The notes: generated from the letters alone by a model not told the origin. 64,000 bases of DNA from an uncultured Candidatus Saccharibacteria bacterium (GCA_964554805.1 CAZKPX010000004.1:72439-136438), one strand, 5' to 3'. Positions 329 through 48,983 are shown, counted from the stretch's first letter. A program made the numbers and translations.

Positions 329-884
329 GGAAAGGCAAAAATCAAAAGGCAAAGGGCAAAAATTAAAGTTAAAAATCAAAGCCCAAAGTTACAAGTAGTG
401 CCAAGTTAGCCAGTATTCGTCATTGTGAGGATCCGCCAGCTGGCGGAGACGTGGCAATCTAGGAGGATTGATGATTGCCTGTTGGCTTAAGAGTGTCATT
501 ATTGTTTGTCCTGGATTGCCGCTCCGCCGGTTGGCGGATCGCAATGACGTTGCAGGGGGGGGCGTCATTGCTTCTGTTCTGGATTGCCGCTCCGCTTGTT
601 GGGGGATGGCAATCTAGCTGTGACTGATATATTTTTCTCAAGTTACATTCGGCCAAAAGCCATTGTTTTTGTATGTCATTTTTTCACCTCAAATAAACAT
701 TTTTTACTAACCTTTGTGTCTATGGGTAGTATTGAATTTGCTTAGGGGCTCTCCCCGTCAAGCTAGGAGACCAGTATTTGAGGTGAAAGAAATGAATACA
801 AGGGTTTTTATTTAAATGCAGAAGACAGTTGCAGCTACTTTGTATTTTTAACTTTAATCTTTGCCTTTTGACTTTTGCCTTTCC
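329..884 (+). repeat. MITE-like composite repeat, copy a (long form). It has terminal inverted arms, internal palindromic GGATTGCCGCTCCGCC..GGCGG and CGTCATTG..CAATGACG modules, and a hairpin core at about 651-810.
   Basis: The left arm aaaggcaaaaatcaaaaggcaaagggcaaaaattaaagttaaaaatcaaag is inverted at the right end as ctttgtatttttaactttaatctttgccttttgacttttgcctttcc. The core ccaaaagccattgtttttgtatgtcattttttcac..ctaggagaccagtatttgaggtgaaagaaatgaataca is shared with the copies at 29.1, 32.5 and 39.9 kb. No ORF is present. Confidence 0.6.
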
Positions 885-2697: not shown

Positions 2698-3438
2698 CTA
2701 GCCTGCTGGCTTTTGCGAGACAGAAAGAACAGATGTGCCTAGGGGGAAATTTACCTTGGTGAGGAGCTTTGTTTCCAGATCCAGCATCTTGGCAAAGGCT
2801 GTATTAATAGGCTTTGGCAGCATCACATAACTGGTTTTTTGTTGGCCTTGGGTGGCTTTTTCTACAACTCTATAGCTGACTACCATTGGAAATGAGAACG
2901 CGACAGCATAGGAGCTTTTAAGAATAGTGTAGCCATGCTTTGTGAGTTGATCTGCCAATGGCTTTCGAGTGTAGCGACGGAAGTGGTGGAGACTAATGTC
3001 ATGACCACTCCATAGCCACTGGTGCGCTGGTACTGTAATAATAAGGATGCCACCAGGTCGCAGGACGCGATACCAGTCTTGGAGAGCTTTATCATCTTCG
3101 TCAATATGCTCTAGCACATCCAAGACTACTGCTACATCAAAGCTGTTATCTTTAAAAGGCAGTTTGCTGCCATCAAAGTGAACAGCATTTTCTATACCGC
3201 GCTGCTTGCAATACTCAATGGCCAGATCGGAAGTATCGACATTGGTAATAGTGCCATGTTTGCGCATTGTGGGGACTGTCCCGCCTGTTCCACAACCGAT
3301 GTTTATAATATCTAGGTGATCTTTGCCCAGTTTCTGCCTGGCTTGTTTGAGCTGGGAATCAACTAAAGCTTTTTTGCCAATATGCCACCAGTAACTCTCC
3401 TCCATTTCAGCCATTTTGTGATACTCTTGTAAATCCAT
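2698..3438 (-). CDS. Class I SAM-dependent methyltransferase.
   Basis: Glycine-rich SAM motif INIGCGTGG and acidic motif VLDVLEHIDEDD. The start is refined to M(DLQEY), with an AAGGAG RBS 5 nt upstream on the minus strand. Confidence 0.7.
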   Translation of the reverse strand: MDLQEYHKMAEMEESYWWHIGKKALVDSQLKQARQKLGKDHLDIINIGCGTGGTVPTMRKHGTITNVDTSDLAIEYCKQRGIENAVHFDGSKLPFKDNSFDVAVVLDVLEHIDEDDKALQDWYRVLRPGGILIITVPAHQWLWSGHDISLHHFRRYTRKPLADQLTKHGYTILKSSYAVAFSFPMVVSYRVVEKATQGQQKTSYVMLPKPINTAFAKMLDLETKLLTKVNFPLGTSVLSVSQKPAG

Positions 3439-19001: not shown

Positions 19002-20600
19002 CTATGGCGCGAGATAAAAATCGAACAAATGATCCTTGTCGGGCCAGAGGTAGGTTTGGTCTTCTAGGTTGGGGAGGTCGTAGTTGAAGTATTGGCGGAA
19101 GACGGTGCGGAAGGAGTTGACGGGGGTGATGGTGGGGTAGAGTTGGCTGTAGTTCTGGTCGGGGAAGTAGTAGGCGTTGAGGATTTGAGTGCGTTCTTGG
19201 ATAGCAGTGTCGGAGGCACCATCAAATTTCCAGTGGTGGCCGGTGGGGCTGATCATGGCTTCGGGGCCCTCATCGCTCTGGAGAATGATAATGGGTGGTT
19301 GGGTTGAGTTGGCTAGAATAGTGTCGATGGCCTGCATGGCCCTACTGTTGGCGCATTTGACCTGTTCGATGTAATTGGCCGGGCTGATTTCCCAGCGCTG
19401 CAGAGGTTGCTGGAGTAGATTGCAATCAGCATCATAGACGTAGGGGTCATGAGGCATAAGCAGGTGGGTCATGACAAATTTTTGCCCTGTTTGCTTGGTT
19501 GCTTGCAGGAGTTGCTGCTGGCCGAAGTCTGCCCAGCGATAATGCTGATCAAAGCCTAGCCCGAGTGGGTAATTAGTGGTTAATCCAGCTAATTCTGGAT
19601 AGTAGGATGTCTCGAGGAGTTGCCTGGTGAAGCTACTGGTGGTTATAAAATCTGACCAGTTGGCCATGATGTTGGTGTCGGCTACCTCGATGTTGCTGGC
19701 TAGCTCGTAATAATTGCCAACGTGGAAATAGGTGTAGCCAAGCGACTTGAAGATTTGGCCGGCCTTGTGATTTCTCATTAAGACTGAAGCGGTATCGGTG
19801 TCAGAGACACCGTCGGCCTGAGTATCGACCAGGCTTTGCAGATAATCTAGATTGAGGGTTGAGGAAAGTGAAAACAGGGTTTTGGGGTAGTTGGTGTTGG
19901 AATCAGTGGCTAGATAGAACTGCTTTTGAGCCAGATAATCGATTAGCTGTTGGTTATCATAGTCATAGTATTCAGCTTGAGTTTTGGGTGAGGCGTAACG
20001 ATCGAGGACGATGTAATAGATATCGGGTTGACTTGCAGCGACAAGCGATGAGTGATGAGCGACAGGGAGGACTTGGGTGGCCTGAAGTGCTTGCTGTCTG
20101 GCCTCGGAGCTGGCAAATAAGCCTGGAACAATTTGGATGAGAGGGCCGACAAGAAGAATAATGCCGACGAGGCTAATTAGTTTAATAAAACGTATCGATG
20201 GCCAGGTAGTCTGCCGACCGGCAGATTTCATAGCCATGACGACCAGCACTATTGCCACAAGTATATACAATAGCCAGACAGCGACTTTGGCTTGATCGGC
20301 TTCCAGCCACTGACCAAAAATCACAGTCAGGCTATTGAAGCTAAAGAATGTGACAACCAGCGTCAGGCTGATTAGAGCGGCAAAGGTTGGTTTTTTGGTT
20401 AAGAATGCCAAACCTATTTGGATAACTACGACGACAAAGGTTGTAAAAAGGAGCGGTTCAATCACCTGGTTTATAGTGGTGCCGTGAATATTGGTGGCGA
20501 ACAAGCTGAGAATTGCGAACCAGCTGAAGAGAATGGCTGGGGCTAGGCTTAGGAGCGACGAGCGACGAGCGACGAGCGACGAGGTGAATCGGTTGAGCAT
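19002..20600 (-). CDS. Membrane-anchored alkaline-phosphatase-superfamily protein, paralog 2. It carries a heptamer SSR in codons 7-17.
   Basis: Same architecture as 17308-18930 (IYYIVLDRYA, LLMPHDPY, AYYFPDQNY, NSFRTVFRQYFN). The N-terminal SSLVARRSSLL is encoded by (GAGCGAC)x4. Confidence 0.4.
   Translation of the reverse strand: MLNRFTSSLVARRSSLLSLAPAILFSWFAILSLFATNIHGTTINQVIEPLLFTTFVVVVIQIGLAFLTKKPTFAALISLTLVVTFFSFNSLTVIFGQWLEADQAKVAVWLLYILVAIVLVVMAMKSAGRQTTWPSIRFIKLISLVGIILLVGPLIQIVPGLFASSEARQQALQATQVLPVAHHSSLVAASQPDIYYIVLDRYASPKTQAEYYDYDNQQLIDYLAQKQFYLATDSNTNYPKTLFSLSSTLNLDYLQSLVDTQADGVSDTDTASVLMRNHKAGQIFKSLGYTYFHVGNYYELASNIEVADTNIMANWSDFITTSSFTRQLLETSYYPELAGLTTNYPLGLGFDQHYRWADFGQQQLLQATKQTGQKFVMTHLLMPHDPYVYDADCNLLQQPLQRWEISPANYIEQVKCANSRAMQAIDTILANSTQPPIIILQSDEGPEAMISPTGHHWKFDGASDTAIQERTQILNAYYFPDQNYSQLYPTITPVNSFRTVFRQYFNYDLPNLEDQTYLWPDKDHLFDFYLAP
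20553..20583 (+). repeat. Heptamer microsatellite (GAGCGAC)x4 inside the N-terminal coding region of the 19002-20600 gene.
   Basis: gagcgacgagcgacgagcgacgagcgacgag. A 7-nt unit in an ORF means a gain or loss of one unit shifts the frame. Confidence 0.8.
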
Positions 20601-20603
20601 AAC

Positions 20604-22046
20604 TTACTTCTTTTCTAGTAGGTATAGGATCCGGTGGCTATCTTTGATTGGGGTGGCTTTGGTAATTTTGAAATATTGACCAAAAGCAGCCTCAAATCCC
20701 TCCTTGGTGTAGTCAGTGAAAATATCCTGCCGGGTAGCTAACAGAATCTGGACTTGGGAATCCTGTTTGGGGATGAATTCAACGATGGCTCCCTTATGCG
20801 ACAACTGGTGGAACAACAGGGCAATCTTGGCTAAGGGGATGTTGAGAGGGATAGCCAGGTGATGGACGACCGCCAGTCCCATAATGGCATCGGCTTGAAT
20901 ACGATCCAGAATAGCCCGACGCTCGGTATTGTGCCAGCCAATGCCTGGGCTGGGGTTGGCAATGTCTGACACCAAAGGCAGGATACTGCCTTTGGTGGAG
21001 CGACTAGCGACGGGCGACGAGCGACGAGCTTCTGATTTGAGGTATTGGTAGAGGCTGTCGACTGCTAAGGGGTCGATGTCGAGGGCGATGGTTTGGATGC
21101 CTTGATCTGCCGCAACCATGCTAAATAAGCCGGTATTGGCACCGATGTCTGTGGCTGATTTTGCTTTGAGTTGCTTGAGATAGTCCCCCACTAATTGCTG
21201 CTTGTGTTGGAGGGCTTGGTCGACATAGTTGTTGTTATTGATGTAATAGCTGGCCCACTCGGTGTTTTGGCCTTTGGCTTTGAGCTTTTTGACTGCTGAC
21301 TCTAGACTATCCAACATGCCCAGCAATGATTGCAGACTGACTTGACCAACAGATGTAGATTGAGAAGCGGCTTGGAGATTTTTTGAGGCATCGGAAGCAT
21401 GACTGACTTGGTTCTTACCGTGAAGATGGATATGGATTAGCAGGCCGGGTCGGAGACGAGAAGCTGGGGGCAGGAGACGGGAGGCTAGGTCTAGAGGGAT
21501 GCCGTCAATATTCGTCTGGAGTAATTGCTGCAGGCGGAGATCGGTATGGGCCATTAAGGCTAGCGGGGCCAGGAAATGTTGGCAGAATTGTTTGTAGGCA
21601 ACCCAGGGCTTTGGCTGGTAGGCTTCAAAAGACAAGGTGTCAATTAAAACTGGCTGATTGGCCACAAATTGGATATTGTAAGCCGTTGCATCTTTGAGAC
21701 TCATGCCATGTTTGAGGGCTGTTTTTTGAAGATGAAGGGTTAGGAGCGCCGCATCTTGCAGCTGGCTAAATGACCATTCATACGGATAGGATATGACCGG
21801 AATATGCTCAGGTTTAATAATTTTATAGGCCTGCTGAAAGGGGTGGTTTGTTAACTTGACCTCTTGATGAGCTACCATAGCTTGCTGGTCAACAAGAGTC
21901 TGATATAGGCCGGAGCTGTGTAGCAGGTCATAGTTTTTCTGGTATGAATCAGAAACTGCCCGATAGATGGTGTCGTCTTGGTAAAAGACAGTGCCGCTGG
22001 GATCGCGGAAGGATGAAGATTCAAGCTTGGTAGTGTCTTTAGGCAT
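20604..22046 (-). CDS. Two-domain protein with a C-terminal class I SAM-dependent methyltransferase. It carries a GCGACGR heptamer tract in the coding sequence.
   Basis: DIGANTGLFSMVAADQG..ALDIDPLAVD is a SAM-binding fold. EARRSSPVASRSTKG is encoded by the gcgactagcgacgggcgacgagcgacgag tract at 21000-21028. Confidence 0.5.
   Translation of the reverse strand: MPKDTTKLESSSFRDPSGTVFYQDDTIYRAVSDSYQKNYDLLHSSGLYQTLVDQQAMVAHQEVKLTNHPFQQAYKIIKPEHIPVISYPYEWSFSQLQDAALLTLHLQKTALKHGMSLKDATAYNIQFVANQPVLIDTLSFEAYQPKPWVAYKQFCQHFLAPLALMAHTDLRLQQLLQTNIDGIPLDLASRLLPPASRLRPGLLIHIHLHGKNQVSHASDASKNLQAASQSTSVGQVSLQSLLGMLDSLESAVKKLKAKGQNTEWASYYINNNNYVDQALQHKQQLVGDYLKQLKAKSATDIGANTGLFSMVAADQGIQTIALDIDPLAVDSLYQYLKSEARRSSPVASRSTKGSILPLVSDIANPSPGIGWHNTERRAILDRIQADAIMGLAVVHHLAIPLNIPLAKIALLFHQLSHKGAIVEFIPKQDSQVQILLATRQDIFTDYTKEGFEAAFGQYFKITKATPIKDSHRILYLLEKK
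21000..21028 (+). repeat. Heptamer microsatellite (GCGACKR)x4 inside the methyltransferase-domain gene.
   Basis: gcgactagcgacgggcgacgagcgacgag. Confidence 0.7.
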
Positions 22047-25830: not shown

Positions 25831-25868
25831 ACACTATTTAGGTTACAGGGGTAATAGGCAAGCGTCAA

Positions 25869-25887
25869 GCGTCAAGCATAGGAGGAA
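25869..25887 (+). repeat. GCGTCAA heptamer repeat in the leader of the rfbB operon.
   Basis: ggcaagcgtcaagcgtcaagc. Confidence 0.6.
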
Positions 25888-25963
25888 GGGGTTACTGGTC
25901 GTTTCGAATCACCGGTGCTTCGCGCCTTACTATCTTGAACCTATCGCATGAATTTTTAGAACA

Positions 25964-25984
25964 GGCGACGGGCGACGGGCGACA
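25964..25984 (+). repeat. GGCGACG heptamer x3 in the leader of the rfbB operon.
   Basis: ggcgacgggcgacgggcgaca. Confidence 0.7.
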
Positions 25985-26050
25985 TGTGGAGACCAGTTCG
26001 ATGGGAAAGGAATGAATGAAGGAGACTGAGGCACCTTTGGTGGCGGATAT

Positions 26051-26156
26051 CGAGACAGGAGACGCGGGACAGGAGGATTGTCAGTAATCTTTGATTTTTG
26101 ATTTTAATTTTTGCCTTTTGCCCTTTGCCTTTTTCCTTTTGCCCTTTGCCCTTTGC
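26051..26156 (+). repeat. Solo right arm of the MITE-like element (copy b): GGAGACAGGA tract plus TIR.
   Basis: cgagacaggagacgcgggacaggaggattgtcagtaatctttgatttttgattttaatttttgccttttgccctttgcc.. The last about 50 nt are read as the C-terminus of the Mur-ligase ORF (..[17 protein letters not shown]). Confidence 0.6.
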
Positions 26157-27411
26157 CGAGCGCTTTCTCTACAGCTGTTTGGTCTGACCAGGGGATTTCT
26201 TGGCCTTGGATGGCTAGGCTTTGTTCGTGGCCTTTGCCGGTAATTAATACTACGTCTCCCTTTTGAGCCATGGCGATGGCTTGGTTTATGGCTTGTTGTC
26301 GATCGTCGAGGCGCTGCCACTGTTTGCCCTGTACTCTACCCTGTTGAGTAAGACCATCGATGATCATTGATTGTATTGTATCCAAAGACTCAAAGCGGGG
26401 GTCCTCCATGGTGAGGATGGAGAAATCTGCCCATTGGCCGGACAGCTGACCGAAGGTTGAGCGCTTGGATTGATCACGTTGAGCTGCTGAGCCAAAAACA
26501 TGAATTAATGCGCCGTTGCCTGTGACTAATTTTTTAGCTTGAGGCAGTACTTGAGCTAAGGATTGTGGCGTATGGGCGAAGTCAATAATGATGGTGTATG
26601 GTGTAGTTTGGACTACCTGCCAGCGACCATCGACCGCTTTGACCGCTGCCAAGCCTTGTCTAATGGCTGACTCAGAAACTTCGAGGCATACCGCGATAGC
26701 GGTTGCTGCTAAGGCATTTGAAACATTGTATTCACCCGGTAAGAAGACTTGCAAGTCTTGGATCGACTTGGTTTTGCTTAATTTGGGAGAAATTTTACTA
26801 TTGAAAGTCGTTGATTGATCGGTTTGCTGCGTAATCGTGCCGAGTAAATCGGCTGGCTGAGACTGGCTAATAGTCAGGAGCGAGGGGTGGGTGGATATAA
26901 GCTGGGTCAATGGTGGACTGTCTATATTTATGATTGTGTGCTGCGACTGCTTGATAATCATGGCTTTGGCTTGAAGGTATTTATCCATAGTGCGGTGATA
27001 ATCGAGATGTTCCGGGCTCAGGTTGGTAATTAGTCCAACCCTAAAATTAAGACCAAAGGTTCGATATTGGTCCAGGCCATGTGAGGTAGTCTCAATAACG
27101 ACATGGCTGACACCTGCCTGTTTCATCTGATGCAACATAGCATATATTTCGGTTGGACCGGGTGTTGAGGTATGAAGGCCAGTTTGGAGATGTTGGCCGT
27201 TGATCTGCGCACCTAGGGTTGAGATGTGGCCGACTGTATGACCAGCCTGCTCCAATATGCTGGAGACAAGATGGGTGGTGGTGGTTTTGCCATCGGTGCC
27301 GGTAATACCAATCAAAATTAAATGTTTGTGTGGCTGGCGGAAGCGAATCATTGCTGCTGCGCTTAAGAGTATATTGATCAGTCGACGGGCAAGAATTCTG
27401 AGATGAATCAT
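26104..27411 (-). CDS. Mur-ligase-family protein (MurT/MurE-like central and C-terminal domains).
   Basis: P-loop GITGTDGKTTT and a Mur ligase middle-domain block, TSHGLDQYRTFGLNFRVGLITNLSPEHLDYHRTMDKYLQAKAMI. The N-terminus MIHLRILARRL resembles the MurT N-terminus. There is no Zn-ribbon. The C-terminal about 16 aa derive from the repeat. Confidence 0.55.
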   Translation of the reverse strand: MIHLRILARRLINILLSAAAMIRFRQPHKHLILIGITGTDGKTTTTHLVSSILEQAGHTVGHISTLGAQINGQHLQTGLHTSTPGPTEIYAMLHQMKQAGVSHVVIETTSHGLDQYRTFGLNFRVGLITNLSPEHLDYHRTMDKYLQAKAMIIKQSQHTIINIDSPPLTQLISTHPSLLTISQSQPADLLGTITQQTDQSTTFNSKISPKLSKTKSIQDLQVFLPGEYNVSNALAATAIAVCLEVSESAIRQGLAAVKAVDGRWQVVQTTPYTIIIDFAHTPQSLAQVLPQAKKLVTGNGALIHVFGSAAQRDQSKRSTFGQLSGQWADFSILTMEDPRFESLDTIQSMIIDGLTQQGRVQGKQWQRLDDRQQAINQAIAMAQKGDVVLITGKGHEQSLAIQGQEIPWSDQTAVEKALGKGQRAKGKRQRAKGKN

Positions 27412-28994: not shown

Positions 28995-29395
28995 GGGGAA
29001 GGGGGAGGCAAAAGGCAAAGGTCAAAAGGCAGAAATTAAAGTTAAAAATCAAAGGTTGCTTACGACTATGACATTGCGATCTGACGGCAAACGAAGTCAT
29101 AGCGGCAATCTTGTTTGATTATATTGCTGGCCCGGCAAAATGCATTCGGCCAAAAGCCACGTTTTTGTATGTCATTTTTTCACATCAAATAAACATGCCC
29201 TAGTATGGATAGATAATTTGGGTGAGGATATACTTATTTACTAGCTCTCCTTGGTCAGGCTAGGAGACCAGTATTTAATGTGAAAGAAATGAATACAGGG
29301 GGTTTATTAAATGCAGAAGGCAGAAGGCAGTCGCAGTTACTTTGTATTTTTGACTTTAATTTCTGCCTTTTGATTTTTGCCTTTTAACTTTAATT
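28995..29395 (+). repeat. MITE-like composite element, full copy c (TIR arms plus hairpin core at about 29148-29310).
   Basis: The left arm ggcaaaaggcaaaggtcaaaaggcagaaattaaagttaaaaatcaaag is inverted at the right as ctttgtatttttgactttaatttctgccttttgatttttgcc. The core ccaaaagccacgtttttgtatgtcattttttcacatcaaataaaca..ctaggagaccagtatttaatgtgaaagaaatgaataca is present. Confidence 0.65.
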
Positions 29396-30073
29396 GACTG
29401 GCCTAGCTGAAGGGGTAGCTGATTGGGTTGACTGGGGGGTGGGGGTAGGTCGGATTTTGTGTTCGCCAAGAATAACTCTATCGGCTTGTTTCTGAAACGC
29501 TACAACTTGGGTTGGTTGAACTTGCAAGAGCGAGGTGACTCGACTGCGGATATCGGCATCTGTAACCTTTTGTTCAACAAAGTCTTCTAAGGCTTTTTGG
29601 ATGCCTATTTGCTGTTCAAGCTTATCCAGATAGGGCTGCATGTCAACATTATCAAGCTGAAGAGTGTTGAGATAATCAGACAACTCCTGCTGTTGTTGTT
29701 GATATTTAGTTAGGGCATCGACAGCCGCCTGAGGATTGTTGTCTTGAATAGCCTGATAGCCTTCGGCTAGTCGCTGCTGACTAAAATCAAGCAGCAGCTG
29801 AGTGCGACTCTCTGGAGTTGAGGCTAATATATATTGAATCTGCTCAATGATGCTTTTGAACCAGTAGGTAAAGCTGCCGGGGATAGCATAAACTGAAGGG
29901 AGTTGAATGAGAGCAGAAGCAGATGACTGAGAGGGGTCGACGGCCACTTCGATACCCAGCGACTGAAGAGTCTCCTCGGCAGTAACAGCAAGGATTGTTG
30001 CTGGCTTGAGCGCCAAGCAGGCAATAAGGCCAAAGACAATGAGACAGGATTTTACCATATGTCTAGGGTACAC
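29390..30073 (-). CDS. Secreted or lipoprotein-like hypothetical protein (signal peptide, Q-rich helical region).
   Basis: An N-terminal hydrophobic signal (SCLIVFGLIACLALKPATILA). No recognisable catalytic motif. Confidence 0.35.
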   Translation of the reverse strand: MYPRHMVKSCLIVFGLIACLALKPATILAVTAEETLQSLGIEVAVDPSQSSASALIQLPSVYAIPGSFTYWFKSIIEQIQYILASTPESRTQLLLDFSQQRLAEGYQAIQDNNPQAAVDALTKYQQQQQELSDYLNTLQLDNVDMQPYLDKLEQQIGIQKALEDFVEQKVTDADIRSRVTSLLQVQPTQVVAFQKQADRVILGEHKIRPTPTPQSTQSATPSARPVN

Positions 30074-31690: not shown

Positions 31691-31938
31691 GAAGGCAAAG
31701 GGCAAAGGGCAAAAGGTAAAAATTAAAGTAGAAAATCAAAAATTACATATGCGCCACTGTGAGCCCTGATTGGATCGGGATAAACTCCGTGCGGCAATCG
31801 GGGAGATATCCTAGATTGCCACGTCATTTCATTCCTCGCAATGACGAATACTGGCTAACTTAGCACTACAGCACTACTTGTAACTTTGGGTTTTAACTTT
31901 TAACTGTAATTTTGCCTTTTGCCTTTTGATTTTTGCCT
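31691..31938 (+). repeat. MITE-like element, short symmetric copy d (TIR arms plus a central palindromic module, no hairpin core).
   Basis: ggcaaagggcaaagggcaaaaggtaaaaattaaagtagaaaatcaaa ... tcctcgcaatgacgaatactggctaacttagcactacagcactacttgtaactttggg (the reverse complement of the 383-433 module of copy a) ... ttttgccttttgccttttgatttttgcc. Confidence 0.6.
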
Positions 31939-31942
31939 TGGT

Positions 31943-32278
31943 CTACCCGATGTTGGGTGGGGAGCTGTAGATTGGTTCTACGGATTGACCGATGGGCAGA
32001 CTGTTGACTGGTAGTTGTAAAGCCAGGCCAAGTGCATTGGCTACGGCAACGCCAACTCTTGTGCCAGTGAATGAACCAGGGCCAGGATTGACTTCGATGG
32101 CTTGCAGATTATCCATTGATAAATCTTGGCTGCCTAGTAATTCTTCAATGGACGGCAAGAGGATTTGCGCATGATTGCGCGTTTCCATTTTTGTTAATTC
32201 GGCAACAAGTTGGCCATCGGGCTGCTGTAAGCGAAGAACGAGTTGTTGTCTATCAGTGGTGTTTATATAAAGTATCAT
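31943..32278 (-). CDS. tsaB: TsaB/YeaZ N-terminal domain only (truncated t6A protein).
   Basis: The conserved motif EVNPGPGSFTGTRVGVAVANALGLAL is present. Only about 112 aa run from the plausible Met to the stop, against about 230 aa for the canonical protein. The ORF is flanked on both sides by MITE-like copies. Confidence 0.5.
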   Translation of the reverse strand: MILYINTTDRQQLVLRLQQPDGQLVAELTKMETRNHAQILLPSIEELLGSQDLSMDNLQAIEVNPGPGSFTGTRVGVAVANALGLALQLPVNSLPIGQSVEPIYSSPPNIG

Positions 32279-32420
32279 ATGCAGATGGCTACCATTCAGC
32301 TGGCTATGACCTTTATTATACAACCAACACATGGGCAAAACTACAAGCAAGCATAGGGGAAGGGTGAGAGGCTGAAGGCAGGGGGATTGTGTATCTTTAT
32401 CTGGCATAGCTGTAAGTGTA

Positions 32421-32745
32421 GGGCGGCAATCTAGTATGGGTTTATTATTCACACACAAGAATGCAATCGACCAAAAGCCATTGTTTTTGTATGTCATTTT
32501 TTCTTGCCAAATAAACACGACTTACTAGCTAATGAATGCCGGGATGAGTTTTTACATGATCTACTAGATCTTCTTGCCTAGGCTAGGAGACCAGTATTTA
32601 GCAAGAAACAAATGAATACAGGGTTATATAAAATGCAGGAGACAAGAGACAGGAGGCAGGAGACGCGGGACGCGACGGCGGGGATTGTCAGTAATCTTTG
32701 ATTTTTGACTTTAATTTTTACCTTTTGCCTTTTGATTTTTGCCTT
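32421..32745 (+). repeat. MITE-like element copy e (hairpin core at about 32470-32640, GACAAGA/GGCAGGA heptamer tract, right TIR arm).
   Basis: ccaaaagccattgtttttgtatgtcattttttcttgccaaataaaca ... ctaggagaccagtatttagcaagaaacaaatgaataca ... gacaagagacaggaggcaggagacgcgggacgcg ... ttgtcagtaatctttgatttttgactttaatttttaccttttgccttttgatttttgcc. The right arm supplies the cmk C-terminal tail. Confidence 0.65.
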
Positions 32746-33460
32746 GTCTTTCCAAGTACTTATCAATATAGCGAGATATTTGCTCGACCGTCTGGTTGAT
32801 GGTGTTGTTTGTACTGTCGATAACAACTGCCCCTTCGGCCAGACGTAGGGCTGAATAAGCCCGTTCAGTATCGCGTCGATCTCGCTCAGCTATCTCTGAA
32901 TAGACTTGCTCAAACGAAATATCCTGACCCGCGTCGATATAATCAACATGGCGCCTCTGGGCTCTGACCTCTACTGATGAAGTCAGAAAAAACTTCATAT
33001 CAGCTTCGGGATACACCGTAGAACCAGTATCGCGCCCTTCCAAGACTGCTCCGTTTTTAGTCTGCTTTACCAATTGGCGCTGATAGTCTTTCATTAGCTG
33101 TCGGACTGGCAGCAATGTGCCGGCCAAGGAAGCTGCTTCTGCAACTTGAGAGTTGCGGATATGGTCGGTAACATCCTGATCCCCTACTTTAATATAACTT
33201 TTTGGGCCAGTGTCTTGAGGATTGGCAGTGAAGGTGATGGGGAACTTGTTTAACAGTTCAACAAGTTGGGCAACAGATTGTTCGTTTAAACGTATATTGT
33301 GCTGCAAGGCTAGCCAGGCTACAGCCCGGTAGCAGGCACCGCTGTCGATATTATCTAAACCATACCTTCGAGCTACCAGATATGAAATAGTTCCTTTGCC
33401 CGAGCCGGCTGGACCATCTATCGTAATGACTAAGCGTCGCTGAGTCATTGCGAGGGACAT
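32711..33460 (-). CDS. cmk: Cytidylate kinase.
   Basis: ITIDGPAGSGKGT P-loop and YLVARRYGLDNIDSGACYRAVAW. The start is set at M(TQRRLV). The last about 12 aa (GKNQKAKGKN) are encoded by the repeat arm. Confidence 0.8.
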   Translation of the reverse strand: MSLAMTQRRLVITIDGPAGSGKGTISYLVARRYGLDNIDSGACYRAVAWLALQHNIRLNEQSVAQLVELLNKFPITFTANPQDTGPKSYIKVGDQDVTDHIRNSQVAEAASLAGTLLPVRQLMKDYQRQLVKQTKNGAVLEGRDTGSTVYPEADMKFFLTSSVEVRAQRRHVDYIDAGQDISFEQVYSEIAERDRRDTERAYSALRLAEGAVVIDSTNNTINQTVEQISRYIDKYLERQGKNQKAKGKN

Positions 33461-33512: not shown

Positions 33513-35180
33513 CTATCTTTTATCCCCACCAGCTTGGCTGGCGGCGGCGATAAAGTCGCGGAATAGCGGATGGGCTTGGGTGGGCCGGGACAGAAACTCG
33601 GGATGGAATTGGACTCCGATAAAGAAGGGGTGATTGGGTATTTCGACCATTTCAACAAGCTGACCATCTGGCGAGGTGCCGCTAATTATCATGCCGGCTT
33701 CTTCTAATGGCTGTCTGTAGACATTATTAAACTCATAGCGATGGCGATGGCGCTCATGAATAGCACTTTGTTGGTACGCTTGATACGCCAACGTGCTGGG
33801 CTTAACTTTGCAGGCCCAATCTCCCAAACGCATACTACCACCGTACTCCTGCTTGAGCAGCTTCTTTTGTTGGTCGGGCATGATGTGAACAATGGGATGC
33901 TTGGTTTTTGGGTCTACCTCGGTTGAATTGGCATTTTTGAGACCTGCTACATTTCTGGCAAACTCGATGGTGGCCATCTGCATGCCGTAGCATAACCCAA
34001 GATATGGCTTATTGTGCTGACGAGCGAATTTGACTGCAGCTATCATGCCTTCAATGCCCCGAGAACCGAAGCCTCCCGGCACGCAAATACCATCCATTTC
34101 GGCCAGTTTGTCAGTCCCTTCTTGTTCAATCTTTTCGGCATCCACCCAAAATAACTGGGGATCTAGGCCATGATGCCAGGCAGCATGCTTCAGGGCTTCG
34201 ATAACCGATACATAAACATCTTCCAGAACGAAATCTCCGGTAGCAAAGTATTTGCCGATTAGCCCGATTTTGACTGGCTTTTTGGCTTTGGCGATCGTTT
34301 TGTTGAGGGCAACCCAATCATCTAAGTTCTTGTCTTTGACCGGTAAGCCCATCTTTTCCAGTAACCGCTCGGCGACGTGCTGTTTGTCTAGAATTAGCGG
34401 CACCTGATAAATGCTATCGACATCGGGATTAGAAATGACATCTTCTGCCTGAACATTGGTGAAAAGTGAAATCTTCTCACGGCGGGTTTTATCGATACTG
34501 GCCGTTGATCGACCAACGATCATATCTGGCTGAATACCCATTGAATTGAGGGCGCGAACCGACTGCTGAATTGGCTTGGATTTCATTTCTCCCAAGGTAC
34601 CAGGAATGGGCAAATAGCCAAGATGAAGCTGGAAGACATCATGCGGATTCTTGAGCTTCATAATGCGCGAAGCTTCTAAAAATAACACATTCTCATAATC
34701 CCCTACTGTGCCACCCAGCTCGATGATAACGACATCGGCTTTATGACGACGGCCGGCCGCTTTGACTCTGTCGATAATTTCATTAGTAATGTGAGGGATG
34801 GGCTGGACCGTTATGCCTTGATATTCAAAGGCTCGCTCTTTTTTGAGAACAGTGTCGTAGAGCATGCCATTGGTGAGATAGTTGGCTCTGTCGAGGTCCA
34901 TGCCAAGGAAACGTTCGTAATTACCAAGATCTTGATCTGTCTCTAAGCCGTCTTGGGTAACAAAGACTTCGCCGTGCTCTTGGGGTCGCAAGGTGCCAGC
35001 GTCCATGTTGAAGTACATATCTATCTTCATGGGCGAGACTGTATAGCCCGAGGCTTTTAGTAATAAGCCGATTGAAGCCGAGGTTATTCCTTTGCCAATT
35101 CCTGAGATAACACCACCGGTAACGAATAAATACTTTGTTGGCATAGTTCCCCCTTTATAGTGACGAGCGACAAGCGACAA
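33513..35180 (-). CDS. pyrG: CTP synthase.
   Basis: KYLFVTGGVISGIGKGI at the N-terminus and a glutamine amidotransferase domain (GLCYGMQ, HPEF). 555 aa. Confidence 0.95.
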   Translation of the reverse strand: MSLVARHYKGGTMPTKYLFVTGGVISGIGKGITSASIGLLLKASGYTVSPMKIDMYFNMDAGTLRPQEHGEVFVTQDGLETDQDLGNYERFLGMDLDRANYLTNGMLYDTVLKKERAFEYQGITVQPIPHITNEIIDRVKAAGRRHKADVVIIELGGTVGDYENVLFLEASRIMKLKNPHDVFQLHLGYLPIPGTLGEMKSKPIQQSVRALNSMGIQPDMIVGRSTASIDKTRREKISLFTNVQAEDVISNPDVDSIYQVPLILDKQHVAERLLEKMGLPVKDKNLDDWVALNKTIAKAKKPVKIGLIGKYFATGDFVLEDVYVSVIEALKHAAWHHGLDPQLFWVDAEKIEQEGTDKLAEMDGICVPGGFGSRGIEGMIAAVKFARQHNKPYLGLCYGMQMATIEFARNVAGLKNANSTEVDPKTKHPIVHIMPDQQKKLLKQEYGGSMRLGDWACKVKPSTLAYQAYQQSAIHERHRHRYEFNNVYRQPLEEAGMIISGTSPDGQLVEMVEIPNHPFFIGVQFHPEFLSRPTQAHPLFRDFIAAASQAGGDKR

Positions 35181-35187
35181 GAACGAG
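35161..35187 (+). repeat. GCGACAA-type heptamer repeat at the pyrG start.
   Basis: tgacgagcgacaagcgacaagaacgagc. Confidence 0.6.
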
Positions 35188-35332
35188 CATATGCAATGAT
35201 AAGCACGAAATGATAGAGGCCCGTTCAGGCCCGAAAGCTAGATTATGTTTTTTTGAGGGGATTAAAGAGAAGTTAATAGAGTGCCCTTCTAAGAATACTG
35301 GCTTAACGGCTGCGCCGTCAAGCGCGACGGGC

Positions 35333-35430
35333 GACAAGCGACAGGCGACCAGCATTTGTTCAGTATTCAATTTGAACTGAATTTCCTCGTCGCACGTCGC
35401 TTGTCGCTTGTCACTATCGCTAAGCGATAA
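35333..35430. repeat. Inverted arrays of GCGACRR heptamers in the tsaC-pyrG intergenic leader, a large palindrome.
   Basis: gcgcgacgggcgacaagcgacaggcgacc .. ttcagtattcaatttgaactgaa .. gtcgcacgtcgcttgtcgcttgtc, followed by the palindrome ctatcgctaagcgatag. Confidence 0.7.
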
Positions 35431-48126: not shown

Positions 48127-48453
48127 TTAACCTACCTTAATCAATTCGACTTCAAAGAGAAGGTCTGAATTGGCGGGGATTGAGCCGACGCTGCGGCTGC
48201 CATAGCCTTTGGCGGCAGGGATGGTGAGCTTGCGCTTGCCGCCTTCTTTCATGCCAGGGATGCCTTCGATCCAACCATCGATCAGTGAGCCAGGATTAAG
48301 AGCAAAGGCAATTGGTTCGCCACGATCGTAGGAGGAATCGAACTTTGTTCCATCCGTAAGCGTGCCGAGATAGTGGACCGTTATGGATGAGCCGACAGTA
48401 GCTTCTGCGCCTTGTCCGACATTTACTTCTTCAATACTTACTTGATCATTCAT
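48127..48453 (-). CDS. FKBP-type peptidyl-prolyl cis-trans isomerase (soluble).
   Basis: FKBP domain blocks VHYLGTLTDGTKFDSSYDRGEPIAF and GWIEGIPGMKEGGKRKLTIPAAKGYG. Confidence 0.8.
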   Translation of the reverse strand: MNDQVSIEEVNVGQGAEATVGSSITVHYLGTLTDGTKFDSSYDRGEPIAFALNPGSLIDGWIEGIPGMKEGGKRKLTIPAAKGYGSRSVGSIPANSDLLFEVELIKVG

Positions 48454-48515: not shown

Positions 48516-48983
48516 CTACGGAATGCTGATCAGCTCAATCTCAAATACCAAGTCGGCATTGGGAGGTATGGATCCACTACCTGAAGCGCCATAGCCTTTG
48601 GCGGCAGGGATGGTGAGCTTGCGCTTGCCGCCAACCTTCATGCCAGGAATACCTTCAACCCAACCATCAATAAGCTGACCCTTGGCCAATACGAAGGTAG
48701 CTGGCTGCCCTTTGTCATAGGAGGATTCAAACTGTGTGCCATCTGCCAAACTCCCGATGTAGTGAACGGTGATGGTGTCTCCTTCTTTGGCCTCAGTGCC
48801 TGTACCGACGACAATATCTTCAATCCCAACAGGCTCATTGGTTGTTGTTTGCTCAGTAGTTGTACTGCTGCTCTGATCGCCTTTGCTGAGATTGCTGCCT
48901 GCCTGCTGTTTGGCAACAATGACCACAACGACGCAGATAATTATTATGCCCACGACTAGGGCTACGATGGTATTTTTGTTCAT
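48516..48983 (-). CDS. FKBP-type peptidyl-prolyl isomerase with an N-terminal membrane anchor.
   Basis: An N-terminal TM helix (IVALVVGIIIICVVVVIVA), an S/T-rich linker and an FKBP domain paralogous to the downstream gene. Confidence 0.8.
   Translation of the reverse strand: MNKNTIVALVVGIIIICVVVVIVAKQQAGSNLSKGDQSSSTTTEQTTTNEPVGIEDIVVGTGTEAKEGDTITVHYIGSLADGTQFESSYDKGQPATFVLAKGQLIDGWVEGIPGMKVGGKRKLTIPAAKGYGASGSGSIPPNADLVFEIELISIP

What the first reader, a model, noticed from the sequence alone, without database searches (positions are those of the whole stretch)
32470..32640. Compensatory base changes in the core hairpin of copy e imply selection on secondary structure.
In copies a, c and f the left arm reads ttttttcACATCaaata (CACCTC in copy a) and the right arm tatttGAGGTGaaag. 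In copy e the left arm reads ttttttcTTGCCaaata and the right arm tatttAGCAAGaaac. Four adjacent positions changed on both arms, and pairing is preserved apart from one C-A. The flanking stem (tgtatgtcatttttt / aaagaaatgaataca) is constant.

This covariation points to an RNA, or a cruciform or ssDNA hairpin, under structural constraint. The left arm also spells a mini-ORF (ATG TCA TTT TTT CAC ATC AAA TAA, giving MSFFHIK, or MSFFLAK in copy e). The covarying positions are exactly its variable codons, so a leader-peptide or attenuator role cannot be excluded.
Basis: seen in the sequence. Interest (0 to 1): 0.8.

Follow-up and report, generated by a model that had tools for sequence, protein, structure and literature searches.

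The report
Palindromic intergenic repeat with matched arm variants
The "compensatory" change is real, but it lies in the long hairpin of a small dispersed repeat that has invaded gene spacers of one uncultured Patescibacteria-like bacterium, a known kind of selfish palindromic DNA, and four copies cannot tell selection on structure from a copying-type mutation.

Summary
Copy e (32488-32620) does carry a 4-base block changed on both arms of a 25-26 bp stem, with pairing kept (CTTGCC/AGCAAG against CACCTC/GAGGTG). It also missed uncompensated states: A.G in copy f, C.A in copies c and e, and a decayed copy b.

The stem belongs to a ~180-nt core module. Four full copies sit on the same strand, nested in 300-600-nt composite intergenic elements bounded by heptamer arrays and long inverted repeats. 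The host looks like an uncultured Patescibacteria (CPR) bacterium. Four relatives keep this gene neighbourhood without the core; in two with the same gene orientation the cmk-tsaB spacer is 53 and 111 nt, against about 430 nt here. The elements are therefore lineage-specific insertions, not an ancient RNA gene.

All variation in the stem sits in the hexamer (9 of 12 columns vary). The other 40 paired columns have 1 variable column, at a predicted bulge. The 64-nt interior is about 73% variable.

Best reading: a non-autonomous REPIN/MITE/bcr1-like palindromic repeat whose hairpin must stay paired. The block change probably arose by templated mutation. There is no Rfam match, no conserved ORF, no promoter or terminator, and no transposase in the window. 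The leader-peptide idea is rejected. It is a new member of a known kind, of modest interest.

The parts
32462..32467 (+). Copy e: 5' half of an outer short helix (TGCAAT; consensus TGCATT). It pairs with AATGCA at 32632-32637.
   Evidence: RNAalifold and pair counts. This helix is weak: 83-89% of cells are paired and there is no covariation.
32470..32487 (+). Copy e: conserved, non-palindromic left flank (ACCAAAAGCCATTGTTTT).
   Evidence: Alignment of the four copies.
32488..32513 (+). Copy e: left arm of the long stem. The variable hexamer CTTGCC is at 32503-32508. A bulged G is at 32493.
32514..32581 (+). Copy e: interior. It begins with the invariant AACA and is otherwise highly variable between copies. 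It contains a second copy of TTCTTGCC (32571-32578) and the 5' half of a small hairpin (TCTTCT, pairing with AGGAGA).
   Evidence: 47 of 64 interior columns vary. TTCTTGCC occurs only 3 times on the + strand of the window. Small hairpin.
32582..32594 (+). Copy e: invariant block GCTAGGAGACCAG. GGAGA is the 3' half of the small hairpin; the rest is unpaired.
   Evidence: 0 of 13 columns vary. The 18-mer including it occurs exactly 4 times against 0.06 expected.
32595..32620 (+). Copy e: right arm of the long stem. The variable hexamer AGCAAG is at 32600-32605. The bulge position 32609 is C here and G in the other copies.
32632..32664 (+). Copy e: 3' half of the outer helix (AATGCA, 32632-32637), running into a purine-rich heptamer array (CAGGAGA, about 4 units). 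The number of units differs between copies.
32682..32745 (+). Copy e: right outer repeat (TTGTCAGTAATCTTTGATTTTTGACTTTAATTT plus TTTTGCC heptamers). On the minus strand it encodes the last residues (NQKAKGKN) and the stop codon of cmk.
   Evidence: Self-BLAST, TRF, Cmk alignment with relatives.
652..815 (+). Copy a core. Arms at 670-695 and 775-800; hexamers CACCTC/GAGGTG, fully paired. It lies inside a composite element of about 305-905.
29148..29310 (+). Copy c core. Arms at 29166-29191 and 29272-29297; hexamers CACATC/AATGTG, with one C.A. It lies inside a composite element at 29006-29385.
39930..40100 (+). Copy f core. Arms at 39948-39973 and 40054-40079; hexamers CACATC/GAGGTG, with one uncompensated A.G. 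It lies inside a composite element at 39837-40240.
25892..26025 (+). Copy b: a decayed core. The right-arm motif GGAGACCAGT..GGGAAAGGAATGAAT and CTTACTA are retained, but the arms are no longer complementary. An intact right outer repeat follows at 26073-26157.
31692..31940 (+). Element d: the same outer inverted repeats and heptamer arrays enclose a different interior, with no core hairpin. This shows that the outer repeats and the core are separable modules.

Best explanation
The hairpin is the central palindrome of a small, non-coding, non-autonomous dispersed repeat, of the same kind as REPINs, MITEs, bcr1, ERIC and Correia elements. It has spread into intergenic spacers of one uncultured Patescibacteria-like lineage.

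Each core is about 180 nt and has these parts:
- two 26-nt arms that form a 25-26 bp, A/T-rich stem with one conserved bulge on each side;
- a closed interior of about 80 nt that evolves freely;
- invariant unpaired blocks (AACA, GCTAGGAGACCAG) and conserved flanks.

Inferred mechanism. The invariant parts are what a trans-acting protein, encoded elsewhere in the genome, reads sequence-specifically. The six-base segment in the middle of the stem is not read by sequence but must stay paired for the folded form to be used. That folded form could be single-stranded DNA during mobilisation or the co-transcribed RNA. Lineages of the element that keep the arms matched are the ones that persist and spread.

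The e variant is one such lineage. A 4-base block was replaced on both arms, most likely by one or two templated (template-switch or arm-to-arm copying) events rather than by eight point mutations.

Shown here: the anatomy, the insertion status, the distribution of variation, and the pairing.

Inferred: the need for the fold, the trans-acting protein, and the templated origin of the block change.
For: Dispersed repeat:
- Four full copies and one decayed copy lie within 40 kb, all in intergenic DNA and all on the + strand.
- The cores are nested with other repeat modules and heptamer arrays.

Insertion, not an ancient gene:
- Relatives L006 (LPG-synthase protein 79% identical), L007 (68%), and L018 and L021 (PyrG 79% and 76% identical) keep this gene neighbourhood, with local inversions, and carry no core or outer-repeat sequence.
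- The cmk-tsaB spacer is 53 nt in L007 and 111 nt in L021 (same gene orientation), 37 nt in L006 where the two genes converge, and 323 nt of unrelated repeats in L018, against about 430 nt in the window.
- The window's Cmk gains a repeat-encoded tail.

Non-autonomous and non-coding:
- No transposase, integrase or reverse transcriptase is among 40 ORFs scanned.
- No reading frame is conserved across the copies.

Fold:
- The same long stem is the minimum-energy structure in all four copies, on both strands, as RNA and as DNA, with z = -2.1 to -5.4.
- Each arm pairs well with its own partner. For copy e, cognate arms give -18.9 (+ strand) and -23.2 (- strand) kcal/mol, against -9.4 to -14.8 with the arms of other copies.

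Pattern of constraint:
- Hexamer: 9 of 12 columns vary. Rest of the stem: 1 of 40, at a predicted bulge. Interior: 47 of 64. Invariant block: 0 of 13.

Precedent:
- Compensatory changes are 'common' in REPIN hairpins, where the conserved ends are read by a transposase (PMC3116915).
- bcr1 repeats show compensatory changes that maintain a double-stranded structure (PMC3184786).

Templated origin:
- The changed positions form one adjacent block.
- TTCTTGCC occurs twice inside copy e, 70 nt apart, but only 3 times on the + strand of the whole window.
- Template switching is documented to make multi-base compensatory changes in one event (PMC8794818).
- Copy f carries the left hexamer of copy c and the right hexamer of copy a. 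This points to exchange between copies.
Against: - Only four copies and about two independent events are available, so no proper covariation statistic is possible.
- No further copy was found in any collection searched. The rest of the source genome could not be read.
- No cognate transposase, target-site duplication or clean element terminus was identified. The 26-nt arms are internal, not terminal.
- The uniform orientation (5 of 5) is not significant (two-sided p about 0.06).
- The near-perfect identity of the arms could reflect recent spread or gene conversion rather than protein recognition.
- Transcription is unknown.
Confidence: 0.5

Rival explanations
1. Purely mutational concerted change. 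The arms stay matched only because palindromes correct themselves by intrastrand template switching or arm-to-arm gene conversion during replication or repair. Pairing has no function and is not selected.
For: - The compensated positions are one contiguous 4-base block.
- An 8-mer containing the new hexamer is duplicated inside copy e.
- Mosaic copy f shows that sequence is exchanged between copies.
- Template switching can fix stems in one event (PMC8794818).
- Decayed copy b shows that a copy can lose pairing at its locus without apparent harm.
Against: - This does not explain why 40 other stem columns and 13 unpaired columns are invariant while the 64-nt interior between the arms is 73% variable. 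Arm-to-arm copying keeps the arms alike within a copy, not identical between copies.
- The two conserved bulges have not been 'corrected' in any copy.
- A second, independent compensated pair exists (copy a C-G, copy c A-T).
Confidence: 0.2
2. A host-useful structured RNA. The element is transcribed, most plausibly on the minus strand together with the flanking genes. Its 26-bp stem then acts in cis, for example as an RNase III-type processing or stability site, as reported for Correia and ERIC elements. Alternatively it is a small RNA gene.
For: - In copies b, c and e the element lies between co-oriented minus-strand genes that are nearly contiguous in L007 and L021. Read-through transcription is therefore likely.
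- On the minus strand the C.A mismatches of copies c and e, and an A.C in the outer helix of copy a, become G.U. The stem is 99% paired there, against 97% on the plus strand. Minus-strand z-scores are slightly better for copies c and e.
- ERIC and bcr1 repeats are co-transcribed and affect mRNA stability (PMC3184786). RNase III processing of Correia elements is from my own knowledge.
Against: - No Rfam family matches, even at E = 10.
- The matching spacers of four related loci lack the core, so no conserved host function is needed there.
- No promoter-like or terminator-like feature recurs across copies.
- Orientation relative to the neighbouring genes is not uniform. Copy a lies upstream of a plus-strand gene and copy f lies in a divergent promoter region.
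- Other wobble pairs favour the plus strand instead (U.G in the small hairpin of copy e).
- The interior is unconstrained.
Confidence: 0.15
3. Each arm is a site-specific recombination site: two protein-binding half-sites around a 6-bp crossover region that must be identical in the partner sites. Two such sites in inverted orientation would make the ~85-nt interior invertible. A related possibility is a folded single-strand site read like an integron attC, with the bulged bases marking the strand.
For: - The layout invariant-15 / free-but-matched-6 / invariant-5(+4) is what a recombinase core site looks like. The need for matching crossover regions in tyrosine-recombinase sites is established knowledge.
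- The bulges are conserved.
- The window holds a polysaccharide-synthesis cluster. In Bacteroides such clusters are controlled by invertible promoters (my own knowledge).
Against: - The hexamers are identical between the arms in only one of four copies (a). Copies c, e and f each have one difference.
- No promoter was found in the interior, which is not conserved.
- Copies also sit next to housekeeping genes (tsaB, ftsE/prfB).
- No recombinase is in the window.
- There are no attC core motifs (GTTRRRY/RYYYAAC) by inspection of the arms.
- The flanking genes are syntenic housekeeping genes, not cassettes.
Confidence: 0.07
4. The left arm encodes a 7-residue leader peptide (MSFFHIK / MSFFLAK) whose translation controls an attenuator formed by the stem.
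For: An ATG...TAA mini-ORF is present in all four copies, and its variable codons are the hexamer.
Against: - There is no Shine-Dalgarno sequence upstream (ccattgtttttgtATG).
- In copies b, c and e the flanking genes are all on the opposite strand.
- No terminator-like hairpin with a T-run or alternative pairing is shared by the copies.
- The same 'leader' would have to serve unrelated genes.
- The ATG and TAA lie in invariant arm sequence mirrored on the right arm. The ORF is a by-product of the palindrome.
- A comparable ATG on the right arm opens frames that differ in every copy.
Confidence: 0.02

Closest known systems
REPINs (REP doublets forming hairpins, mobilised by RAYT Y1 transposases; PMC3116915)
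   Same: - Two highly conserved inverted repeats are separated by a less conserved spacer, and the whole folds into a long hairpin in ssDNA or mRNA.
- The elements are dispersed in extragenic space and are non-autonomous.
- Compensatory changes across the hairpin are common.
- Decayed singlets occur (compare copy b).
   Different: - REPs are short, G+C-rich and individually palindromic. REPINs are about 70-110 nt.
- Here the arms are A/T-rich and not self-palindromic. The hairpin is about 135 nt, with an ~80-nt interior and conserved non-palindromic flanks.
- No RAYT gene has been seen. Copy number per genome is unknown.
bcr1 repeats of the Bacillus cereus group, and ERIC and Correia elements (MITE-like intergenic palindromes; PMC3184786)
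   Same: - Size is about 100-180 bp.
- They are intergenic, and their distribution is not conserved between related strains.
- They fold into a long imperfect stem. In bcr1, base-pair compensatory changes maintain the structure.
- They are often co-transcribed with neighbouring genes.
   Different: - Those elements have defined termini with direct-repeat duplications (5 bp for bcr1, TA for ERIC and Correia). None was found here.
- There is no sequence similarity.
- The host is a different phylum.
- Here the core is embedded in a larger composite bounded by heptamer arrays.
STRR heptanucleotide arrays and Nezha-type MITEs of heterocystous cyanobacteria
   Same: - Tandem heptamer arrays in inverted orientation flank intergenic palindromic modules.
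- The sequence looks cyanobacterial at first reading.
   Different: - The organism is not a cyanobacterium by its proteins.
- There are no HIP1 sites.
- The heptamer sequences differ.
- The resemblance to STRR rests on my own knowledge and was not tested.
Integron attC sites
   Same: - An imperfect palindrome is read as a folded single strand.
- The stem has conserved extrahelical bases, and the terminal structure varies in length and sequence.
- The arm sequences co-vary.
   Different: - There are no R/L core motifs and no integrase.
- The flanking genes are syntenic housekeeping genes rather than cassettes.

Membership tests
MITE (non-autonomous DDE-transposon derivative) | Small, non-coding, present in multiple dispersed copies | tested here: met
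   Four full copies plus one decayed copy in 40 kb. No reading frame is conserved.
MITE (non-autonomous DDE-transposon derivative) | Presence/absence polymorphism against related genomes | tested here: met
   The core is absent from the syntenic loci L006, L007, L018 and L021. Their matching spacers are short (37-111 nt) except in L018, which holds its own unrelated repeats.
MITE (non-autonomous DDE-transposon derivative) | Inverted repeats at the very termini | tested here: inconclusive
   The 26-nt arms are internal, because conserved sequence continues outside them. The outer 50-70-bp inverted repeats with heptamer arrays could be the true termini, but they are missing on the left of copies b and e.
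MITE (non-autonomous DDE-transposon derivative) | Target-site duplication flanking the element | tested here: not met
   No direct repeat was seen at the core or composite boundaries by inspection. Empty-site DNA of the relatives is too diverged to fix the boundaries.
MITE (non-autonomous DDE-transposon derivative) | A parent insertion sequence with the same ends | not testable with these tools
   There is no transposase in the window.
REPIN / REP-RAYT system | Two conserved inverted repeats plus a variable spacer, forming a hairpin with compensatory changes | tested here: met
REPIN / REP-RAYT system | Each repeat is a short G+C-rich imperfect palindrome (REP) | tested here: not met
   The arms are A/T-rich (4-6 G-C pairs out of 26) and are not self-complementary.
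REPIN / REP-RAYT system | A cognate RAYT (Y1 transposase) gene in the genome, flanked by the repeats | not testable with these tools
   None is in the window. The remaining genome was not available.
Described structured RNA family (Rfam) | A match to a curated covariance model | tested here: not met
   No match at gathering score over the whole window. No match at E <= 10 over 32380-32780.
Integron attC | R''/R' core motifs, an adjacent cassette array and intI | tested here: not met
   No GTTRRRY/RYYYAAC in the arms by inspection. The neighbours are syntenic housekeeping genes. No integrase.
Invertible promoter (inverton) | An inverted-repeat pair around a promoter, with both orientations present in the population | tested here: inconclusive
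   The inverted-repeat pair is present. No recurrent promoter-like site lies in the interior. Orientation heterogeneity needs read mapping, which was not possible. The Logan contigs L002 and L005 agree with the window's orientation.
Leader peptide / attenuator | A ribosome-binding site, a position upstream of and on the same strand as the regulated gene, and alternative terminator pairing | tested here: not met
   There is no SD sequence. In copies b, c and e the flanking genes are all on the opposite strand. No terminator-like partner was found.

The most novel reading that the evidence does not exclude
The 6-bp matched but sequence-free segment, flanked by invariant sequence and conserved bulges, is a specificity or crossover spacer of a recombination site used by an unknown Patescibacteria enzyme. 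Each copy would then be either a small invertible switch or an attC-like folded single-strand site. Variant spacers such as that of copy e would define mutually incompatible sub-families.
Probability: 0.07. Interest if true: 0.6.

Novelty: new member of a known kind. Interest (0 to 1): 0.3.

Why it matters
Patescibacteria (CPR) genomes are usually described as small and compact. Here a member of that group has short gene spacers (about 50-110 nt in its relatives) inflated to 300-450 nt by nested palindromic repeats and heptamer arrays. These repeats even rewrite the C-termini of Cmk and a Mur ligase.

As a case study, it shows that an apparently textbook 'compensatory change' can sit in selfish, recently inserted DNA and can be produced in one mutational step. 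It is a caution against reading structure-based selection, or a functional RNA, from a few copies.

If the full genome holds tens of copies, the family would be a clean system for asking whether hairpin pairing is selected. The stem has one free segment inside an otherwise invariant sequence.

Tried and rejected
Searches for more copies, all negative:
- Exact gapped patterns found nothing in GTDB species genomes (one chance hit). The same was true of JGI metagenomes (two chance hits, read) and IMG/VR (hits read were all chance).
- blastn against plasmids found nothing.
- An nhmmer profile of the core, run against every fetched locus, matched only Logan contigs of the same genome.
- Ten spurious ORFs from the repeats are not in the protein collection.
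- A multi-probe peptide query made from the core's open frames found no protein sharing three 5-residue words.

Ideas rejected:
- Cyanobacterial origin. This was my first impression from the STRR-like repeats. The protein neighbours are Patescibacteria, and there are no HIP1 sites.
- Conserved small protein on the right arm. GAGGTG-N6-ATG looks like an RBS plus start codon in copies a and f. The motif is lost in copies c and e, and the frames differ.
- Promoter or terminator cassette.
- The hexamer as a guide that matches flanking DNA. No copy has its hexamer or the complement elsewhere nearby, apart from the internal duplicate in copy e.
- Choice of strand from wobble pairs. The signals conflict.
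- Replication-strand bias. GC skew has a single sign over almost all of the window, so 5 of 5 copies sharing one orientation is only suggestive.

Full report
**1. The observation**

The sequence at 32470-32640 reads as the first-stage reader described for copy e.
- The left arm is tgtatgtcattttttCTTGCCaaata (32488-32513).
- The right arm is tatttAGCAAGaaacaaatgaataca (32595-32620).

Pattern searches and self-comparison find four full copies of the unit, all on the + strand:
- a at 652-815;
- c at 29148-29310;
- e at 32470-32640;
- f at 39930-40100.

A fifth, decayed copy, b (about 25892-26025), keeps only the right-arm motif and a short internal motif. Its arms no longer pair.

The hexamers in the middle of the arms are:

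| Copy | Left hexamer | Right hexamer | Pairing |
|---|---|---|---|
| a | CACCTC | GAGGTG | fully paired |
| c | CACATC | AATGTG | one C.A |
| f | CACATC | GAGGTG | one A.G |
| e | CTTGCC | AGCAAG | one C.A |

Copy c carries its own compensated pair (A-T where copy a has C-G).
- copy f has an uncompensated mismatch;
- copies c and e share the same C.A;
- the 'constant' outer stem differs in copy e at one base, G to C at 32609, which is a predicted bulge.

**2. Is it more than chance?**

Four changed positions all being complementary on the other arm has p about 0.004-0.012 if the arms varied independently.

On the four-copy alignment, 4 pairs show changes on both sides. At most 4 of 500 column shuffles reach that number, and slid registers give 0-1.

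In every copy, on either strand, with RNA or DNA parameters, the minimum-energy fold contains the same 25-26 bp stem with one bulge per side. The z-scores run from -2.1 to -5.4. The longer 171-nt stretch given in the finding was not exceptional, with z about -1.

Cognate arms pair much better than swapped arms. For copy e the values are -18.9 kcal/mol (+ strand) and -23.2 kcal/mol (- strand), against -9.4 to -14.8 kcal/mol with the arms of other copies.

The complementarity is real. However, the four compensated pairs are one contiguous block plus one further position. That amounts to roughly two events in four sequences.

**3. Anatomy**

The core unit has these parts, from left to right:
- a weak outer helix (TGCATT with AATGCA);
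- a conserved non-palindromic left flank (GCCAAAAGCCATTGTTTT);
- the left arm;
- an invariant AACA;
- a highly variable interior of about 64 nt;
- a small hairpin (UCUCC/GGAGA);
- an invariant block GCTAGGAGACCAG;
- the right arm;
- a conserved right flank.

The distribution of variation is the most informative result:

| Region | Variable columns |
|---|---|
| Hexamers | 9 of 12 |
| Rest of the paired stem | 1 of 40 (the bulge-side change in copy e) |
| Invariant block | 0 of 13 |
| Interior | 47 of 64 |

The hexamer differs from the rest of the stem (p = 6e-7) but not from the interior (p = 1.0).

So most of the stem is constrained in sequence, not merely in pairing. One six-base segment is free in sequence but matched between the arms.

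**4. The core is nested in larger composites**

Each core lies in a 300-600-nt intergenic element. These composites are bounded by long inverted repeats (AAATTAAAGTTAAAAATCAAAG and its complement) and by GGCAAAG/TTTGCCC heptamer arrays. A purine-rich heptamer array of variable length lies between the core and the right outer repeat.

Element d (31692-31940) has the same outer repeats around a different interior. Copies b and e lack the left outer repeat. The modules are therefore separable and shuffled.

Copy f combines the left hexamer of copy c with the right hexamer of copy a. The interiors group a with f and c with e, whereas the right outer repeats group a with c and b, e and f together. 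This mosaic pattern indicates exchange between copies.

**5. Organism and context**

The repeats look cyanobacterial (STRR-like), but the proteins say otherwise.
- CTP synthase is 63-66% identical to named Patescibacteria (Woykebacteria, Doudnabacteria).
- It is 73-79% identical to a handful of unnamed metagenome sequences.
- There are no HIP1 sites.

Assigning the organism to Patescibacteria is an inference from the best named hits.

The window holds housekeeping genes and a polysaccharide-synthesis cluster. In the 24-42 kb stretch around copies b-f the genes are almost all on the minus strand. No transposase, integrase or reverse transcriptase is among the 40 ORFs scanned.

Four related loci keep this gene neighbourhood (ftsE ... 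pyrG-cmk-tsaB-small ORF-LPG synthase-DUF5667-epimerases), with local inversions, but lack the core and outer repeats.

The cmk-tsaB spacer compares as follows:

| Locus | cmk-tsaB spacer |
|---|---|
| L006 | 37 nt (genes convergent) |
| L007 | 53 nt |
| L021 | 111 nt |
| L018 | 323 nt (its own unrelated heptamer arrays and hairpin repeat) |
| Window | about 430 nt |

In the window, Cmk ends in a repeat-encoded NQKAKGKN* tail that L006 and L007 lack. A Mur ligase gains [17 protein letters not shown] in the same way.

The elements are therefore lineage-specific insertions. L018 has its own, unrelated heptamer arrays and hairpin repeat in the same spacers. Fast-turnover intergenic repeats thus seem to be a habit of part of this clade.

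No further copy of the core was found in any searchable collection.

**6. What it most likely is and how it works**

The best-supported reading, at about 0.5, is a non-autonomous palindromic dispersed repeat of the REPIN/MITE/bcr1/ERIC kind.

Shown:
- multiple copies;
- intergenic position;
- absence from related genomes;
- no coding capacity;
- a long hairpin with a free interior;
- a decayed copy.

Inferred:
- The invariant arms, bulges, unpaired blocks and flanks are read sequence-specifically by a protein encoded elsewhere.
- The central six base pairs are not contacted but must pair in the folded form, either single-stranded DNA during mobilisation or co-transcribed RNA.
- Only lineages with matched arms persist.

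For REPINs, the conserved ends are thought to be read by a transposase. [quoted passage not shown]

The 4-base block change of copy e is more economically explained by one or two templated events than by eight point mutations. Template switching is documented to make multi-base compensatory changes in a single event (PMC8794818). Copy e also carries a second TTCTTGCC 70 nt downstream of the left arm, an 8-mer seen only three times on that strand in 64 kb. That last point is post hoc and only suggestive.

**7. Rivals**

*A purely mutational explanation, with no selection for pairing (0.2).* It fits the block nature of the change and the decayed copy b. It does not explain why arms and unpaired blocks are identical between copies while the interior is about 73% variable. 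It also does not explain why the two bulges are never 'corrected'.

*A host-useful RNA (0.15).*
- For: likely read-through transcription, and three C.A or A.C mismatches that become G.U on the minus strand.
- Against: the element's absence from relatives, the lack of any Rfam match, the lack of recurrent promoter or terminator features, non-uniform orientation relative to genes, and a counter-example wobble on the plus strand.

*Paired recombination sites with a 6-bp crossover region, or an attC-like folded site (0.07).* This reading fits the invariant / free-but-matched / invariant layout and the conserved bulges. Against it, the hexamers are identical between arms in only one of four copies, no promoter or recombinase is present, and the neighbours are housekeeping genes.

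*The leader-peptide idea (0.02).* There is no ribosome-binding site, the flanking genes of copies b, c and e are all on the opposite strand, and there is no terminator partner. The ATG and TAA are by-products of the palindrome.

**8. Verdict**

- The feature is a new member of a known kind of element, in a little-sampled lineage.
- Interest is modest (0.3).
- The decisive work is to recover the rest of the genome, collect all copies, test covariation properly, look for the mobilising enzyme, and map reads for inversion or excision.

Noticed in passing
window 331-361, 860-882, 20553-20583, 20998-21029, 25859-25983, 26109-26157, 29006-29031, 31692-31721, 31910-31939, 32716-32745, 35162-35412, 39837-39883, 40180-40237; L018 1-76, 2026-2129, 2945-2963, 3115-3148: Tandem heptanucleotide arrays are frequent: 28 period-7 rows in TRF output over 64 kb. 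They mostly lie in non-coding DNA, often as inverted pairs around intergenic repeats. A relative (L018, GCA_964536215.1) has different heptamers in the same spacers. This resembles the STRR repeats of heterocystous cyanobacteria, but the lineage looks like Patescibacteria.
   Followed up: partly
window 32711-32745 (cmk 3' end); 26104-26160 (Mur ligase 3' end): The outer repeat supplies the last residues and the stop codon of two real genes: Cmk ends ...RQGKNQKAKGKN* and the Mur ligase ends ...[18 protein letters not shown]006 and L007 Cmk lack the tail.
   Followed up: partly
window 32501-32508 and 32571-32578: TTCTTGCC, which contains the variant hexamer of copy e, occurs twice inside copy e, 70 nt apart. 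It occurs only 3 times on the + strand of the whole window. This may be a footprint of templated mutation.
   Followed up: partly
window 31692-31940 and 380-480: Element d has the same outer inverted repeats but a different interior, with a CGTCATT...AATGACG hairpin and GGCAATC motifs. That interior recurs in inverted orientation in the left part of composite a. Related motifs (CATTGCGA, GGCAATC) occur in composites c, e and f.
   Followed up: partly
window 31943-32278; L006 8256-8591; window 29390-30073: The TsaB-like gene is only 111 aa in the window, L006 and L007 (108 aa in L018, 91 aa in L021), matching just part of the TsaD Pfam domain. It is inverted in L006 relative to the window, L007, L018 and L021. 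The DUF5667 gene is co-oriented with the LPG-synthase gene in the window, L018 and L021 but inverted relative to it in L006 and L007. So single-gene inversions occur next to these repeat-rich spacers.
   Followed up: no
window 26104-27411: A Mur-ligase-family gene lies between the NUDIX and epimerase genes. It is absent at that place in L006 and L021. It is followed by decayed copy b.
   Followed up: no
window 43528-44037, within ORF 41438-47506: A perfect 255-nt tandem duplication, together with many degenerate Gly/Ser/Pro-type repeats, lies inside a 2022-aa ORF.
   Followed up: no
window 48199-48285 and 48588-48674: An 87-nt direct repeat, 90% identical and 389 nt apart. The second copy lies inside the FKBP-type isomerase ORF 48516-48983. 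This may be a tandem paralogue or a remnant.
   Followed up: no
L018 80-100 and about 3150-3180: The relative's spacers carry their own repeated hairpin (CCCCGATTAAATCGGGG followed by TAAACGAA) next to ATCGCTA heptamer arrays. It is unrelated in sequence to the window's core.
   Followed up: no
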